A stretch of DNA of 53,600 nt from a virus (lineage: Duplodnaviria > Caudoviricetes), in the IMG/VR virus record IMGVR_UViG_3300047563_000009, positions 1-53,600 of that record. One strand, 5' to 3'. Below the pieces are notes generated by a model. That model saw only the letters and a program-made list of their open reading frames with translations. It searched no databases and had not been told where the DNA came from. Positions 1,918-6,362 of the stretch are shown here, in pieces. The number at the start of each line of letters is the position of its first letter. The stretch's first letter is position 1. A program made the position numbers and the translations under genes.

Positions 1918-2589
1918 ATGGCGTTCGAGCAAGATAAAGAAATCGCGCTCGAAACTTGTAAGCAGTGGCTTGAAGATTGTGATGCAGCTTATCTTGCCAA
2001 GGAAGATGTAATCATTTTCTGGACGCACTTTAATCCTGAATCTAAGCGTGGCGAATGGACACGTTATAAGATGAAGGAAGCTTGTCGAGTCATCAAAGCC
2101 ACTCGTGCAGGTTTTGCTGCAATGCGATTTATTAAGCCAGAGCTTGTAATGCTTGCCGCTCAGGAAACTGAGAGAGCATATAAGCAGGCTGTAAAATCCC
2201 GTTCAACTGTTCCTCCAGAATTCTTTAATTTGGAGCGCGCTGGTCACTTCAACAATTTTGAAATGTTGACTATGTGCATGTTGCAGGAATTAGTTGGAAG
2301 AGGATGGAACGTTGAGGCAGTTTGTCTTGGAAAGCTAATGAAAGAAGTATTCCAAACAAAAGGTTTCGCAGTTCCTAACCGTACTTTCCGCTGGAAGTTG
2401 CTTCGTGCAGTCGCAGAGGAGTCCGGTGTAATTATTCGTGACAGAACCAACCGAATGACCGTCACAGGTATTGGACGGTTTGTTGCGATTCAAGTTGATG
2501 GTATCGATGACTCCATCAAAGTTGAGTTCACCGTCGATGAGACGCAGGACTTGATAAATAAATCAATCGAACGATTTAAAAATATTTAG
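1918..2589 (+). CDS. hypothetical protein, 223 aa
   Basis: Long ORF in tight operon; no motif recognised. Confidence 0.8.
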   Translation: MAFEQDKEIALETCKQWLEDCDAAYLAKEDVIIFWTHFNPESKRGEWTRYKMKEACRVIKATRAGFAAMRFIKPELVMLAAQETERAYKQAVKSRSTVPPEFFNLERAGHFNNFEMLTMCMLQELVGRGWNVEAVCLGKLMKEVFQTKGFAVPNRTFRWKLLRAVAEESGVIIRDRTNRMTVTGIGRFVAIQVDGIDDSIKVEFTVDETQDLINKSIERFKNI

Positions 2590-2614
2590 TCGTTTGTAAT
2601 ATAGAGCAATATTC

Positions 2615-2632
2615 AACATTAGTTGGAATTGA
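2615..2632 (+). promoter_or_regulatory. putative phage-RNAP promoter motif copy
   Basis: AACATTAGTTGGAATTGA in the gap upstream of the 2704 gene and the ncRNA region. Confidence 0.6.
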
Positions 2633-2703
2633 TTCTTAGAGAAATACTTCTCAAAATTTTATTCCCGGCAAAATCGCCGCCAAACTTTAAGGTATTAAAT
2701 AAC

Positions 2704-3048
2704 ATGGCTATTGTACGTCAAATTACTCAGTATGAAGCAAAAGATGGTTCCGTATTCCTGACCGAAGCTGAGTGTGATGCTCATGAATTCATGCTGGATA
2801 ACAAAGCAGAAATCGACGCAGCTACCGAAGCATTCGTAAACACCATTGGTGCAGTTGGTCGTTCTCGTAACGGTAAAATCAACACCTCTTCCGAATTCCT
2901 GGCCTTCTACATTCCTTGGGTTGCTGCTGGCAAACCGGTTGTTGAACGTACTGTATTCGAGCCAGAAGTTGTTGAAGCTCCAGAAGCTGCCGCTGTTGCT
3001 GATGAAGCAGTTGCTGCTGCCGAAGGCGAAGAAGCTGCTGGCTTCTAA
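2704..3048 (+). CDS. hypothetical protein with acidic Ala/Glu-rich tail
   Basis: ATG2704 after AAGGT; codon usage like highly expressed genes. Confidence 0.8.
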   Translation: MAIVRQITQYEAKDGSVFLTEAECDAHEFMLDNKAEIDAATEAFVNTIGAVGRSRNGKINTSSEFLAFYIPWVAAGKPVVERTVFEPEVVEAPEAAAVADEAVAAAEGEEAAGF

Positions 3049-3093
3049 TATAAATTAATTCTGGTCTGCGGCGTAGGCAGTTGCCTAAGTCGA

Positions 3094-3125
3094 TTAAAGC
3101 CTGATACATTCGGGCTTTAAATTTT
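3094..3125 (+). terminator. hairpin / possible intrinsic terminator
   Basis: TTAAAGCCTGA-TACAT-TCGGGCTTTAA followed by ATTTT. Confidence 0.45.
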
Positions 3126-3128
3126 GAA

Positions 3129-3737
3129 CCCATTCCGACCCAGTTACGTTAAGAGCGTACCCAACTGGAGTGGGCTTCAATGAGTGTTCTTGTGATAAGC
3201 ATTTGGGAGACTGACCTATACCCAATCGTGCAAGGTCCAGACAAGAGCATTCATTGAAGTGTTAGATTGGTAGCGAGCGCTTCGCCCATTCCGTTGTTAA
3301 GTTGGAACCGAGATTAGCTCAACGCAACTTAGACGTGAGTGGGCTTCAATATGGATGTGCAATGGACGAACCCTTCTCCGATAAGAGAAGACAATTAGCT
3401 GGACGGACGTGCCCACTATTTCAGAACCAGGACCCATCACAGTAGTAGCGATTCACTACCGCGAAACAGTGTTGAATATTGGTAATGTTATTTGTGGAAG
3501 GGCACCAGTGAAAGTATATCCAGTAACAGTGGACGAAAAGTAGAGGTAGTGCTCGAAAAGTAGTTCCAGTCTGGTTTAAATACCAGAGTCCATATTGAAG
3601 TTGTGAGCACCTCAAAATGTGAAACCTCATTCTGCTGTAAAATACCTCAGCAGAGTGAGCTTCAATAAGCACGAGCTAGCGCGAAAGCCGAGGATACGAA
3701 CCTGTCAACGTTTGTTCTACAGGGTGCTTATTGAAGT
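3129..3737 (+). ncRNA. array of three structured RNA cassettes with shared frame C(C/T)CATTC..GAGTG(G/A)GCTTCAAT..cargo..ATTGAAGT
   Basis: Cargo-enclosing stems 3175-3193/3241-3259, 3344-3356/3588-3600, 3660-3672/3724-3736; each is preceded by a CATTC/GAGTG hairpin. Confidence 0.65.
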
Positions 3738-3783
3738 AGTTTTCTGAGTTTAGTAGTGATTATTTTTGCAAACTAAAATAAAT

Positions 3784-3816
3784 GCAAACGATTCTGAAAT
3801 ACGAGTTGCAGCTTAA
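3784..3816 (+). other. tmRNA-like proteolysis tag reading frame ANDSEIRVAA-stop
   Basis: AAAATAAAT-GCA AAC GAT TCT GAA ATA CGA GTT GCA GCT TAA; resembles E. coli tag ANDENYALAA; no tRNA-like domain found. Confidence 0.6.
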
Positions 3817-3921
3817 TTAAGTTTAAGTTCTCTCCGAGGTCTTTCGACTCCTTGTTACCAAATTCGACGCAGTGGCCCGCTGTGATTAATAATGGGCATC
3901 ACAATAACAACTGAGGTATTT

Positions 3922-4176
3922 ATGGTAATTAATCGCCCTAACCAAATCATGATGGATGTATTTGAAGTCCCTCAAGCAACAGTGTTCGAATTTCAAAACC
4001 GTCTGTTCCTTCGTGTACTTGAGATTGAACTGGCGAGTGTAGTTGGTAATGATTCCCTCCGCAATATCTTGGGTGTGGATGTGGAAAATGGTTGCTACTT
4101 TACGTCAAGTCGTGAAGCACCTATTGAAGCTCGTATGGTTGTAGTTCACCAACAAGCACACATCACGCTGGAGTAG
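3922..4176 (+). CDS. hypothetical protein
   Basis: ATG3922 after GAGGT. Confidence 0.7.
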   Translation: MVINRPNQIMMDVFEVPQATVFEFQNRLFLRVLEIELASVVGNDSLRNILGVDVENGCYFTSSREAPIEARMVVVHQQAHITLE

Positions 4177-4613: not shown

Positions 4614-4697
4614 GTCTGTGGAACTCCGAATTGTAGCGGAGGTATTGGGCAGCAATGCCGAATATGGCACTGGGTTCAAGTCCCGGCACAGACGCCA
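4614..4697 (+). ncRNA. tRNA-like RNA without a canonical anticodon loop
   Basis: Acceptor GTCTGTG/CACAGAC-G-CCA; T-arm CTGGG-TTCAAGT-CCCGG; D-like CTCCG/CGGAG; central arm GGCA-GCAA-TGCC. Confidence 0.65.
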
Positions 4698-5277: not shown

Positions 5278-5569
5278 GTGGAATAGCCCGACAAGGCAGT
5301 GCTCTGGGTACAACACTTTAAAATGCTGCCTCCGAGAACGGAAGTTCACAGCGTCGAGCGAATGTGCGACCTTAAATAACGAGATTCAAGCAATGCATTG
5401 CAGGGTGAGTGGAAGTCTCACAACTGTCTGCCGCCGCAGTTAAGGCGCGTCCTGAATCAAGCAGCCTAGACTTGAGGTGGCCACTTCCTAAAACAGTGTC
5501 CGAGAACAAACTCGTAATCAGTCGTAGTTGAGACGATACCCACGCATAGCCCACGTTACGGGCCTCAGT

Positions 5570-5643
5570 GGACGCATGTCAGAAAGGCTATGTGGCAGAT
5601 TGCAAACCTGCTTATACTGGTTCGATTCCAGTTGTGTCCTCCA
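5570..5643 (+). tRNA. tRNA-Cys(GCA)
   Basis: Acceptor GGACGCA/TGTGTCC, U discriminator, CCA; anticodon loop TTGCAAA; T-arm ACTGG-TTCGATT-CCAGT. Confidence 0.9.
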
Positions 5644-5720
5644 AACGGTGGCGCAGTAGTTGTTGCGGAACGACTGCTGACCAAATAGTTTCCAGTCTAT
5701 TCAAAACTGGAACAAATTAT

Positions 5721-5800
5721 GCGCTCGTAAAGTTAATTGGAAACTACTTGCCGACACAGGTAGGTATTGCTGGGTATCTTTAAACCAGCCGAGTGCACCA
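5721..5800 (+). ncRNA. degenerate tRNA-like RNA
   Basis: Acceptor GCGCTCG/CGAGTGC-A-CCA; D-arm AGTT/AACT; 8-nt anticodon loop CGACACAG; T-stem GCTGG/CCAGC with 11-nt non-TTC loop. Confidence 0.6.
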
Positions 5801-5806
5801 AATTAT

Positions 5807-5991
5807 GGAACCAGCCGAAAGGCCACACTTGAGAGTAGATGGAGAATGATGCCCGCTGTCAGCGTAGGTAATCGACCAGTAGGGTAAAGTGGAGAGGTGT
5901 ATCAGTAAGGTGACATATTACGAATAAGGGCTTAAAACGTACCTAACTTAATAGAGACCGAGAAAATAAGTAATTCCTAAAGGTTCCACCA
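5807..5991 (+). ncRNA. 185-nt RNA closed by an acceptor-like stem ending ACCA
   Basis: GGAACC(5807)/GGTTCC(5982)-A-CCA; internal GCC-GAAA-GGC; same AAATTAT leader as the two tRNA-like RNAs. Confidence 0.5.
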
Positions 5992-6362
5992 AACCCCCCT
6001 AATAGTTATGTCTCTATTCAAAAGGCAATAAGAAGCGTCTGGCATACCGTAGCGATACGGCTGAATCTGCCTCTTGTAGTATCTACAGATTCAAAGTTGC
6101 GTTGACTGTGAAGTGACGAGATGGAACTCTGTTCCTATTTAGGTTTCTCCTCATCCTGAAATTAGCTCCTAATCACATGAAATATGCAAGGCAGGGTTCT
6201 TGATAAAGTTTCTATCATTCTTTATCAAGCGGGTTTAGCGATTTTCCCGTAGGGTTCTCCCATAACATGGAATTGTATATTAACCTAGCCGAGACAAATA
6301 TACTCAGTTGTTGGTCTGATTAAAACCAACACAATTTAATTCTCTTTGAACTGGAGTAAGTT

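What the first reader, a model, noticed from the sequence alone, without database searches (positions are those of the whole stretch)
3757..3868. Orphan tmRNA-like tag (ANDSEIRVAA-stop) with resume context and downstream pseudoknot but no tRNA-like domain
Seen: AAAATAAAT|GCA AAC GAT TCT GAA ATA CGA GTT GCA GCT TAA at 3784-3816, followed by an H-type pseudoknot at 3835-3867. Established: the E. coli tmRNA tag is ANDENYALAA, with a GCA resume codon after an A-rich stretch; AND contributes to SspB binding and the terminal AA is read by ClpX. Length, both ends and upstream context all match. I find no Ala acceptor stem (GGGG...CCACCA with G3-U70) nearby, in normal or permuted order. An in-frame TTG at 3766 would give a 16-aa peptide MQTKINANDSEIRVAA. 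Inference: either a stand-alone mRNA-like tmRNA module acting in trans (perhaps with one of the anticodon-less tRNA-like RNAs), an SspB/ClpXP decoy peptide, or a tmRNA relic.
Basis: partly seen in the sequence, partly recalled or inferred. Interest (0 to 1): 0.8.

Follow-up and report, generated by a model that had tools for sequence, protein, structure and literature searches.

The report
Orphan tmRNA tag module in phage
This phage carries only the message half of the bacterial ribosome-rescue RNA (tmRNA), and its front end is complementary to the host's own tmRNA, which suggests that the phage may replace the degradation tag the host adds to unfinished proteins.

Summary
At 3784-3816 lies GCA AAC GAT TCT GAA ATA CGA GTT GCA GCT TAA behind AUAAAU. 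An H-type pseudoknot follows at 3835-3867, and the 53.6-kb genome holds no tRNA-like domain.

It is not chance and probably not a relic. The ~170-nt module (3736-3905) recurs in 231 of 50,697 phage records and 137 of 5,426 E. coli genomes. In 31 distinct copies:
- the frame is always 10 codons plus a stop;
- changes follow codon periodicity (21/9/39);
- two pseudoknots covary (13 of 20 pairs compensatory, 0 of 500 shuffles);
- only 5 have an in-frame start codon.

The tag and first pseudoknot align with the coding piece of betaproteobacterial two-piece tmRNA. The module begins just 3' of where the tRNA-like domain would end.

New here: the module's 5' arm is antisense to E. coli tmRNA nt ~57-107, covering the resume codon in 31 of 31 copies. 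The predicted pairing is strong in coliphage copies (dG -40 to -49 kcal/mol) but weaker in the window (27 bp, about -26).

Best reading (inferred, untested): a trans-acting coding piece docks on host tmRNA, masks its tag template and presents its own. I found no description in print.

The parts
3736..3769 (+). 5' arm, antisense to host-type tmRNA (E. coli ssrA nt 77-107: the linker after pseudoknot 1, the resume codon and codons 1-6)
   Evidence: The predicted duplex has 27 bp in four colinear helices: arm 1-9 with ssrA 99-107, 13-16 with 92-95, 21-27 with 85-91, and 28-34 with 77-83. dG is -25.7 to -26.9 kcal/mol and z is -3.1 to -3.4 against shuffles. It is only suggestive for the window alone, because better-scoring unrelated sites exist in the background.
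3770..3783 (+). 14-nt single-stranded linker ending in the resume context AUAAAU
   Evidence: AUAAAU|GCAAACGAU is identical in all 31 aligned modules, but they were collected with that 15-mer, so this is partly by construction. The Klebsiella phage ZX4 copy, found by similarity instead, keeps AUAAAU|GCAAACGA. The same context occurs in ARAGORN-called permuted tmRNAs on viral contigs.
3784..3816 (+). Tag reading frame ANDSEIRVAA plus TAA, with no conserved start codon
   Evidence: The frame is 10 codons plus a stop in 31 of 31 copies. Parsimony changes by codon position are 21/9/39. In-frame start codons are present in only 5 of 31.
3810..3829 (+). Hairpin that holds the stop codon (analogue of tmRNA helix 5)
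   Evidence: It appears in the minimum-energy fold. An equivalent hairpin over the stop codon is predicted in most of the 31 copies, with different stem sequences; this was judged by eye and not counted by column.
3835..3867 (+). H-type pseudoknot (PK2 analogue): stem 1 is 3835-3839/3850-3854 and stem 2 is 3844-3847/3864-3867
   Evidence: Stem 1 is 97.8% paired, with 3 of 6 pairs showing compensatory change. Stem 2 is 95.2% paired, with 4 of 4. It aligns to positions 270-304 of the beta_tmRNA model in a relative.
3868..3897 (+). Second H-type pseudoknot: stem 1 is 3868-3873/3879-3884 and stem 2 is 3875-3878/3894-3897. The conserved loop is AUUAAUAAU.
   Evidence: Stem 1 is 96.8% paired, with 2 of 6 pairs compensatory and one G-U pair kept in 31 of 31. 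Stem 2 is 95.2% paired, with 4 of 4 compensatory. The G-U pairs indicate that the + strand is the RNA strand.
3623..3736 (+). Flanking hairpin unit just upstream: a 12-bp hairpin at 3626-3659, then the stem CTTCAATAAGCAC/GTGCTTATTGAAG at 3660-3672/3724-3736. It is context and possibly a processing signal, not part of the conserved module.
   Evidence: Inverted repeats I4 and I5. This is the third of three similar units (D1, I1, I7, I4). Function was not tested.

Best explanation
The locus encodes a ~170-nt RNA (3736-3905, + strand). It is the mRNA-like half of a two-piece tmRNA with the tRNA-like half removed. It has a 5' arm, a short linker ending in AUAAAU, a start-less 10-codon degron-like tag (ANDSEIRVAA) whose stop codon sits in a hairpin, and two H-type pseudoknots.

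Shown:
- It belongs to a large, conserved family in phages of enterobacteria and Aeromonas.
- The tag evolves like translated sequence.
- The pseudoknots covary.
- No tRNA-like domain accompanies it.
- The arm is antisense to host-type tmRNA across its resume codon.

Inferred:
- The arm base-pairs with the host's alanyl-tmRNA. This plays the role of the helix that ties the coding piece to the acceptor piece in natural two-piece tmRNAs.
- The pairing masks the host's own resume codon and first codons.
- It places the phage's linker and resume codon beside that helix.
- Ribosomes rescued by host tmRNA-SmpB would therefore add the phage-encoded tag instead of ANDENYALAA.
For: Family and conservation:
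- 231 of 50,697 phage records match 3750-3900, and 76 of them cover at least 80% of it. They span Chaseviridae, Ounavirinae, Schitoviridae, Ackermannviridae and several siphoviruses.
- 137 of 5,426 E. coli genomes carry it. In one prophage it lies between Q and the holin gene, downstream of tR'.

Translation-like selection:
- The frame is 10 codons plus a stop in 31 of 31 distinct copies. Changes by codon position are 21/9/39.
- Only 5 of 31 have an in-frame ATG/GTG/TTG.

Structure:
- 96.4% of cells pair, 13 of 20 pairs show compensatory change, and 0 of 500 shuffles reach this. Slid controls pair at 35-49%.

Homology:
- The beta_tmRNA model aligns the tag and first pseudoknot of a relative to model positions 206-304.
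- The module's 5' end matches the sequence directly after the 5' tRNA-like domain of a bacterial beta-type tmRNA. In the Rfam model that stretch pairs with the acceptor piece.
- Sigma-70-like promoters end 5-9 nt before the module in phages C1 and EcSzw_1.

No tRNA-like domain:
-.
- Phage C1's whole genome gives 0 tRNA-model matches at E<=1.

Antisense arm:
- An exact 8-11-nt complement to ssrA 96-107 is present in 31 of 31 copies.
- The best duplex of 20 of 20 distinct 32-nt arms falls in ssrA 53-108. For 13 of the 20, at most 1 of 100 shuffles does as well.
- Full arms give dG -23.6 to -49.1 (median -43.8). They cover the resume codon in 31 of 31 and leave 12 nt to the phage resume codon in 25 of 31. 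z is -4.5 to -6.6 for the long arms.
- The equivalent stretches of four canonical permuted tmRNAs give z -0.8 to +0.8. Arms against the rest of their own RNA give z -1.4 to +1.9.
- For the two long arms tested (C1 and L064), 18 non-ssrA contexts sharing the same 15-nt seed score much more weakly than about 27 ssrA variants: for C1, -12.6 to -25.5 against -25.9 to -34.2.
Against: - No experiment shows the RNA, the pairing or the tag.
- In the window the arm is short (27 bp, about -26 kcal/mol). Unrelated sites score as well or better: two in about 30 kb of E. coli background, and two distinct sites (four overlapping scan windows) in the phage's own 107 kb of both strands.
- 7 of 20 arms are matched by 6-13 of 100 shuffles. 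The Felix-like, Erwinia-phage and L028 arms have z of only -1.2 to -1.9.
- The true host's tmRNA could not be fetched.
- The arms could be residue of an ancestral inverted copy rather than a selected feature.
- Long-arm pairing would have to open host pseudoknot 1, and tmRNA is protein-bound in cells.
- Known trans-translation loads the message in cis. Loading of a base-paired foreign message on a one-piece tmRNA has no precedent.
- The single-sequence fold is no more stable than shuffles.
- RNA-library contigs that bridge a prophage copy show only presence, not a discrete RNA.
Confidence: 0.5

Rival explanations
1. Antisense inhibitor or sponge of host tmRNA. The arm pairs with the host resume region and blocks tagging or rescue. 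The module's own tag and pseudoknots are inherited baggage, or serve only to mimic tmRNA for binding proteins such as SmpB, S1 or RNase R.
For: It rests on the same arm complementarity. A tRNA-like-only tmRNA of mycobacteriophage DS6A is reported to inhibit E. coli tmRNA, so phage interference with tmRNA has a precedent (passage seen in PMC11915505).
Against: Codon periodicity of 21/9/39, an invariant 10-codon length, a kept stop codon (TAA 30, TAG 1) and a constant 12-nt spacing in 25 of 31 copies are not needed for a mere blocker.
Confidence: 0.2
2. A coding piece that works with a different, unrecognised tRNA-like partner. Candidates are the anticodon-less tRNA-like RNA at 4615-4697, or a divergent acceptor piece elsewhere.
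For: The window holds a tRNA-like element with a T-arm and an encoded CCA (sub-threshold mascRNA-like match of 21.5 bits). T-arm-bearing modules sit beside some copies (L059, L024, L028).
Against: The element at 4615-4697 reads C3-G70, not the G3-U70 that alanine charging needs (the identity rule is recalled). No strong complement to the arm lies near it. Phage C1 has the module but 0 tRNA-model matches in its whole genome, and lambdoid prophage copies have none nearby.
Confidence: 0.08
3. An ordinary tiny gene. In the window this would be TTG at 3766 giving MQTKINANDSEIRVAA, a free peptide that competes with ssrA-tagged proteins for SspB or ClpXP.
For: The window and 4 other copies have an in-frame TTG or GTG. 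The peptide keeps AND at the front and AA or VA at the end.
Against: 26 of 31 copies lack any in-frame ATG/GTG/TTG, and 22 of 31 have TAG seven codons upstream. By eye I saw no Shine-Dalgarno-like sequence before the frame. In the alternative ATG frame, read by eye in four copies, peptide length and sequence vary.
Confidence: 0.07
4. A relic of a phage tmRNA, or a DNA-level element such as a promoter formed by TCGACG-18-AATAAT at 3864-3893, with no RNA function.
For: A promoter-like match (9 of 12) overlaps the pseudoknots. The tRNA-like half is clearly lost.
Against: Compensatory changes occur in four helices, and the strand-specific G-U pairs are kept. Codon periodicity is present. The arm changes as slowly as the tag: 2.3 changes per column in each, against 3.1 downstream. 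The promoter-like count in the region is no higher than in shuffles (3 against 2.8).
Confidence: 0.05

Closest known systems
Coding piece of two-piece (circularly permuted) tmRNA, betaproteobacterial type (Rfam RF01850) and the phage-borne permuted tmRNAs (e.g. phage Melnitz, PMC9004378)
   Same: It has the same resume context (AUAAAU|GCAAACGAU) and a 10-codon AND...AA tag with the stop codon in a hairpin. The first pseudoknot aligns to the model (CCUUGUUACCAAA). The 5' strand matches the stretch that pairs with the acceptor piece. Viral contigs with the same context and 10-codon tags are called as permuted tmRNAs by ARAGORN (L013, L029, L102).
   Different: It has no acceptor piece, no 5' acceptor strand or D-loop analogue, and no CCA. 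All Rfam scores are below the cut-offs. The 5' strand is complementary to the host's one-piece tmRNA message region rather than to an acceptor piece of its own.
One-piece tmRNA (SsrA, RF00023) of the enterobacterial hosts
   Same: It shares the first eight bases of the tag (GCAAACGA), A-U-A at positions -6 to -4, a 10-codon tag ending in Ala-Ala, and pseudoknots after the tag.
   Different: It has no tRNA-like domain or helix 2. Tag codons 3-8 and bases -3 to -1 differ. These are among the positions the arm pairs with in the host, so the arm fits the host but not its own RNA.
tmRNAs without a tag frame (tRNA-like domain only): mycobacteriophage DS6A, some mitochondria and plastids (passages seen in PMC11915505)
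   Same: These are half-tmRNAs. The DS6A form is phage-borne and is reported to interfere with host tmRNA.
   Different: They are the mirror image. They keep the tRNA-like half and lose the message, whereas this module keeps the message and loses the tRNA-like half.
Phage and prophage base-pairing small RNAs (e.g. anti-sRNAs of EHEC prophages, PMC4104026, search listing only)
   Same: They are short phage RNAs with a 5' region complementary to a host RNA. Some sit in the late-operon leader region of lambdoid prophages.
   Different: The proposed target here is tmRNA, the paired region is long (27-41 bp), and the RNA carries its own tag template and pseudoknots. No Rho-independent terminator was found in the window.

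Membership tests
tmRNA, one-piece (RF00023) | tRNA-like domain: acceptor stem with G3-U70, T-arm, 3' CCA | tested here: not met
   ARAGORN finds no tmRNA. RF00023 matches only 3775-3828, at 7.3 bits against a cut-off of 47. Whole-window Rfam at E<=5 finds only tRNA-Cys.
tmRNA, one-piece (RF00023) | Start-less tag frame behind a resume context, ending in hydrophobic-Ala-Ala and a stop held in a hairpin | tested here: met
tmRNA, one-piece (RF00023) | Pseudoknots after the tag | tested here: met
   Two H-type pseudoknots are supported by covariation.
tmRNA, one-piece (RF00023) | Alanylation, SmpB binding and tagging activity | not testable with these tools
   This needs biochemistry.
Two-piece (permuted) tmRNA (RF04321, RF01850) | Acceptor piece (T-arm, 3' acceptor strand, CCA) upstream, and a 5' acceptor strand with D-loop analogue at the start of the coding piece | tested here: not met
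   RF04321 scores 22.7 bits against 47, and only the tag part aligns well. The module starts directly after the point where the 5' tRNA-like domain ends in a bacterial example. Promoter-like sites end 5-9 nt before the module in two relatives.
Two-piece (permuted) tmRNA (RF04321, RF01850) | Tag and first pseudoknot homologous to the family's coding piece | tested here: met
   The beta_tmRNA alignment of relative L004 covers model positions 206-304, at 19.2 bits. That is below the family cut-off of 84 because the rest of the model is absent.
Trans-acting base-pairing RNA (antisense to tmRNA) | Complementarity to a defined target beyond chance | tested here: met
   For the family. Long arms give z -4.5 to -6.6, and the ssrA site is the best non-self site in about 30 kb for 4 of 8 arms tested.
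Trans-acting base-pairing RNA (antisense to tmRNA) | The same, for the window's own arm | tested here: inconclusive
   27 bp, dG about -26, z about -3. Equal or better unrelated sites exist, and the host tmRNA is not available.
Trans-acting base-pairing RNA (antisense to tmRNA) | Pairing in vivo, and a chaperone-binding module or terminator | not testable with these tools
   No terminator-like site was found in window 2560-4000. In vivo pairing needs experiments.

The most novel reading that the evidence does not exclude
Phages of enterobacteria and Aeromonas carry a portable 'tag-swap' RNA. It is a tmRNA message half that base-pairs onto the host's one-piece tmRNA and turns it into a hybrid two-piece tmRNA. 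Stalled ribosomes rescued during infection would then add a phage-chosen peptide tag instead of the host's ANDENYALAA.
Probability: 0.4. Interest if true: 0.95.

Novelty: new variant of a known kind. Interest (0 to 1): 0.85.

Why it matters
tmRNA is thought to need its tRNA-like and message halves joined, either covalently or as two pieces made from one gene. A message half that is conserved and evolving like translated sequence, yet has no tRNA-like half and lies in hundreds of virulent and temperate phage genomes, does not fit that picture.

If it docks on host tmRNA, it would be the first case of a virus reprogramming trans-translation. It would also be a natural demonstration that the tmRNA message can be supplied in trans. 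Phages would then have a handle on which truncated proteins are destroyed during infection.

The module is currently unannotated or mis-annotated as small hypothetical proteins, for example in Faunus and nithesis.

Even if the docking model is wrong, the family is a well-supported new structured phage RNA with a specific, testable target.

Tried and rejected
- **ARAGORN for one-piece and permuted tmRNA.** I ran it on the window, on 121 fetched loci and on L123. It calls permuted tmRNAs on many viral contigs but in none of the loci that hold this module.
- **Rfam.** I searched at gathering and at permissive thresholds. Only sub-threshold tag matches appeared. In one search, RF04321 hit 4 of 6 relatives' loci. 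L001 had only an alpha_tmRNA hit and L002 had none. In one search, Faunus scored 20.5 bits and phiA050 gave nothing.
- **A partner for the arm inside the phage genome.** Apart from the arm's own antisense strand, the best sites are -29.3 and -26.6 kcal/mol, and neither is next to a tRNA-like element.
- **A pseudoknotted acceptor with a CCA-like 3' tail after the second pseudoknot.** The tails vary (ACCCA, GCACA, AUCACA and others) and there is no G3-U70 equivalent, so I dropped the idea (by eye).
- **Closing helices around the module.** I considered CUUCAAU/AUUGAAG in the window and AGUGCUCUUUCC/GGUAAGAGCAUU in siphoviruses and lambda as an acceptor stem. Promoter-like sites in C1 and EcSzw_1 would start the RNA inside them, so they are not part of the module.
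- **Whole-length duplex folding of the module against ssrA.** It gave meaningless long duplexes, so I replaced it with arm-only tests.
- **RNA evidence.** Four RNA-seq runs from one study hold a prophage copy. Contigs of 780-1188 nt bridge it at a depth similar to its neighbours. This shows presence in an RNA library, not a discrete transcript.
- **Host tmRNA of the window's own host.** I could not fetch it. As a stand-in I used about 27 ssrA variants found on viral contigs. None fits the window's arm better than E. coli's does.
- **Literature.** Searches found no description of a tRNA-less tag module or of a phage RNA pairing with tmRNA. The six tag peptides searched as words gave 0 papers. 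What I saw of each paper:
  - PMC11915505, PMC9004378 and PMC12803456: passages.
  - PMC11722516: one passage.
  - All others: search listings only.
  - Supplementary tables, such as the tmRNA database's phage entries, were closed and could bear on novelty.
- **svsR.** This sRNA of a lambdoid prophage lies at the 3' end of cI and is unrelated.
Full report
**What is there.**
The window is a complete 53.6-kb virus record. In this region its nearest named relative is Aeromonas phage phiA050. It also resembles Chaseviridae such as Erwinia phage Faunus.

The finding lies in an 840-nt gene-free stretch (3050-3890). That stretch folds far better than shuffles (-283.5 kcal/mol, z -8.1, 0 of 20 shuffles). 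A degenerate version of this tag pattern occurs once in the window and in 0 of 100 shuffles.

**No tRNA-like half.**
- ARAGORN finds one tRNA (Cys, 5570-5643) and no tmRNA.
- Rfam at curated thresholds finds only that tRNA.
- At E<=5 over the whole genome, the only additions are weak matches on the tag itself: tmRNA_permuted at 22.7 bits (cut-off 47) and alpha_tmRNA at 17 (cut-off 50).
- The one-piece tmRNA model matches only 3775-3828, at 7.3 bits.

**It is a family, not an accident.**
- The 151 bases 3750-3900 match 231 of 50,697 phage records, and 76 of them cover at least 80% of the query. The records belong to Chaseviridae, Ounavirinae, Schitoviridae, Ackermannviridae, Deseoctovirus and other siphoviruses.
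- They also match 137 of 5,426 complete E. coli genomes. In one prophage the module sits in the Q-to-holin leader, just past the point where the sequence stops matching phage lambda downstream of tR'.
- A scan of viral contigs for the 15-mer around the resume codon brought in more copies.
- From all sources I aligned 31 distinct modules.
- The tags differ: ANDSEIRVAA, ANDSEMRVAA, ANDSEMRMVA, ANDNVFLAVA, ANDDVILMAA, ANDDVVLMAA, ANDDLMLMAA, ANDEQFLAVA and others. A Klebsiella phage has ANEEMYLAVA.
- Every copy has 10 codons followed by a stop (TAA in 30, TAG in 1).

**The tag evolves like translated sequence, but has no start codon.**
On a tree built from the flanks, parsimony changes in the 30 tag columns fall 21, 9 and 39 at codon positions 1, 2 and 3. 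Residue 6 is always F, M, V or I. Residue 10 is always Ala despite 8 third-position changes.

Only 5 of 31 copies, the window among them, have an in-frame ATG, GTG or TTG between the tag and the nearest upstream stop. In 22 of 31, TAG lies seven codons upstream with no canonical start codon in between. The overlapping ATG frame, read by eye in four copies, gives peptides of varying length.

**RNA structure.**
Two H-type pseudoknots follow the tag. In the window:
- The first has stems at 3835-3839/3850-3854 and 3844-3847/3864-3867.
- The second has stems at 3868-3873/3879-3884 and 3875-3878/3894-3897.

Over 31 sequences, 96.4% of cells pair and 13 of 20 pairs show compensatory change. None of 500 shuffles reaches the observed values, and sliding the partners drops pairing to 35-49%. 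Conserved G-U pairs indicate that the + strand is the RNA.

A hairpin holds the stop codon (3810-3829 in the window). Equivalent hairpins with different stems are predicted in most relatives, judged by eye. On the other side, the window's module folded alone is no more stable than shuffles (z -0.13). That model cannot form pseudoknots.

**What it is related to.**
The same resume context and 10-codon tags occur in viral contigs that ARAGORN calls as permuted (two-piece) tmRNAs with normal tRNA-like parts (L013, L029, L102). Phage-borne two-piece tmRNAs are in print (passages in PMC9004378 and PMC11915505).

The betaproteobacterial tmRNA model aligns the tag and first pseudoknot of a relative to model positions 206-304. 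The alignment includes the motif CCUUGuuACcaAA, which the window has as CCUUGUUACCAAA.

In a bacterial beta-type tmRNA, the 5' tRNA-like domain is followed directly by AGAUAGGUUUUGGGGCGAC. The phage modules begin AGAUAGUUUUCGUGAGCGAC, and GUAGUUUUC in the window. In the Rfam structure this stretch is the strand that pairs with the acceptor piece.

Sigma-70-like promoters end 5-9 nt before the module:
- TTGACA-17-TAGATT in C1.
- TTGACA-17-TATAGT in EcSzw_1.
- By eye, TTGACA-17-TAGATT in Klebsiella phage ZX4.

So the module is the coding piece minus everything tRNA-like. Phage C1's whole genome has no tRNA-model match at E<=1, and its only tmRNA-model match is the tag.

**The new observation: the 5' arm is antisense to host tmRNA.**
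I took E. coli ssrA from a genome search (295.8 bits).

- All 31 modules carry an exact 8-11-nt complement to ssrA 96-107, the codons for D-E-N-Y. Matches of 10 nt or more arise in 45 of 930 shuffles.
- Complementarity continues colinearly. The best duplex of 20 of 20 distinct 32-nt arms lies in ssrA 53-108. For 13 of the 20, at most 1 of 100 shuffles does as well. For the other 7, 6-13 of 100 do.
- With the whole 5' region, dG runs from -23.6 to -49.1 kcal/mol (median -43.8). The duplex spans the host resume codon in 31 of 31. In 25 of 31, exactly 12 nt separate the last paired base from the phage's own resume codon (14 nt in the window). In E. coli, 11 nt separate GCCGC from the resume codon (sequence). 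That GCCGC closes pseudoknot 1 is recalled, not tested.
- Long arms have z of -4.5 to -6.6. The window has z -3.1. The Felix-like, Erwinia-phage and L028 arms have z of -1.2 to -1.9.

Controls:
- The equivalent 32 nt of four canonical permuted tmRNAs give z -0.8 to +0.8 against ssrA. The arms against the rest of their own RNA give z -1.4 to +1.9.
- In about 30 kb of E. coli background, the ssrA site is the best non-self site for 4 of 8 arms tested and second for one. It is outside the top five for the window and Faunus arms. Its rank was not seen for one arm, whose top-five list was filled by its own antisense strand.
- Among 45 contexts sharing the same 15-nt seed, about 27 ssrA variants score -25.9 to -34.2 for the C1 arm, and 18 non-ssrA contexts score -12.6 to -25.5. 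For the window's arm the ranges are -21.2 to -25.7 and -15.1 to -25.6.

The window's duplex has 27 bp in four helices:
- arm 1-9 with ssrA 99-107;
- arm 13-16 with ssrA 92-95;
- arm 21-27 with ssrA 85-91, including two G-U pairs;
- arm 28-34 with ssrA 77-83.

Different lineages reach the same target with different arm sequences and gaps. This is what selection for the target would give, but descent from one inverted copy could also give it.

**Mechanism proposed.**
Shown:
- A conserved, structured RNA without a tRNA-like domain.
- Codon-level selection on a frame without a start codon.
- An arm complementary to the host tmRNA's resume region.

Inferred:
- The arm docks on host alanyl-tmRNA, as a coding piece docks on an acceptor piece.
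- It covers the host's resume codon and first six codons. In long-arm copies it also covers the 3' half of pseudoknot 1.
- It presents its own linker (with A-U-A at positions -6 to -4, as in E. coli) and its own resume codon beside the new helix.
- Rescued ribosomes would then read the phage tag.

That a helix can stand in for pseudoknot 1, and that U-5 and A-4 set the frame, are recalled from the tmRNA literature and were not checked here.

The main rival is a pure antisense blocker of tmRNA. A different tRNA-like partner, a free decoy peptide and a relic are less likely, for the reasons given under the rivals.

**Limits.**
- There is no experimental evidence.
- The window's arm is the weak form.
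- Its host's tmRNA was not available.
- The RNA-seq contigs show only presence.
- Supplementary files that might list such sequences could not be read.
- My searches found no prior description.

Noticed in passing
window 3129-3736: There are three similar hairpin units. Each has a hairpin, then GAGTG(G/A)GCTTCAAT opening a long stem closed by ATTGAAG (stems 3175-3193/3241-3259, 3344-3355/3589-3600 and 3660-3672/3724-3736). The whole 876-nt gene-free stretch folds with z -8.1. No Rfam match. They may be processing signals or further RNAs.
   Followed up: partly
window 4615-4697: A tRNA-like element without an anticodon loop. It has acceptor strands GUCUGUG/CACAGAC, a T-arm CUGGG-UUCAAGU-CCCGG and an encoded G-CCA, with a GCAA tetraloop hairpin where the anticodon arm would be. 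Rfam gives only a sub-threshold mascRNA-like match (21.5 bits). ARAGORN does not call it.
   Followed up: partly
window 5280-6360: Another long stretch without ORFs of note surrounds the only called tRNA (Cys, 5570-5643). It was read but not analysed.
   Followed up: no
L223 (phage lambda 44400-45300), L005, L059, L024, L123: The stem CACAACAGGTAAGAGCATT ... AGTGCTCTTTCCGTTGTG lies just downstream of tR' in the phage lambda late leader. It is repeated around varied inserts in siphoviruses and lambdoid prophages, and the tag module sits between two such stem-loops.
   Followed up: partly
L059, L024, L028 (viral contigs), beside the module: Inserts enclosed by those stems contain a hairpin plus a T-arm (GGGTTCGAATCCC) but are not called as tRNAs by ARAGORN. 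As read by eye, their acceptor-like stems show U3-G70, not G3-U70.
   Followed up: partly
L006 (Shigella phage MK-13) about 1606-1700: The loop-bearing hairpin of the second pseudoknot and its trailer are duplicated in tandem, as a repeat of about 48 nt.
   Followed up: no
phage records PP952070.1 and OR544125.1: Records labelled Staphylococcus phage Pel53 (53.7 kb) and Acinetobacter phage vB_AbaM_AB4P2 (45.7 kb) carry the module at 70-81% identity, like the coliphages. The host labels look out of place.
   Followed up: no
L002 (Faunus) 1409-1543; L004 (nithesis) 1442-1640: In these deposited records, small 'hypothetical protein' genes are annotated over the module, some on the opposite strand. 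They are probably mis-calls over an RNA gene.
   Followed up: no
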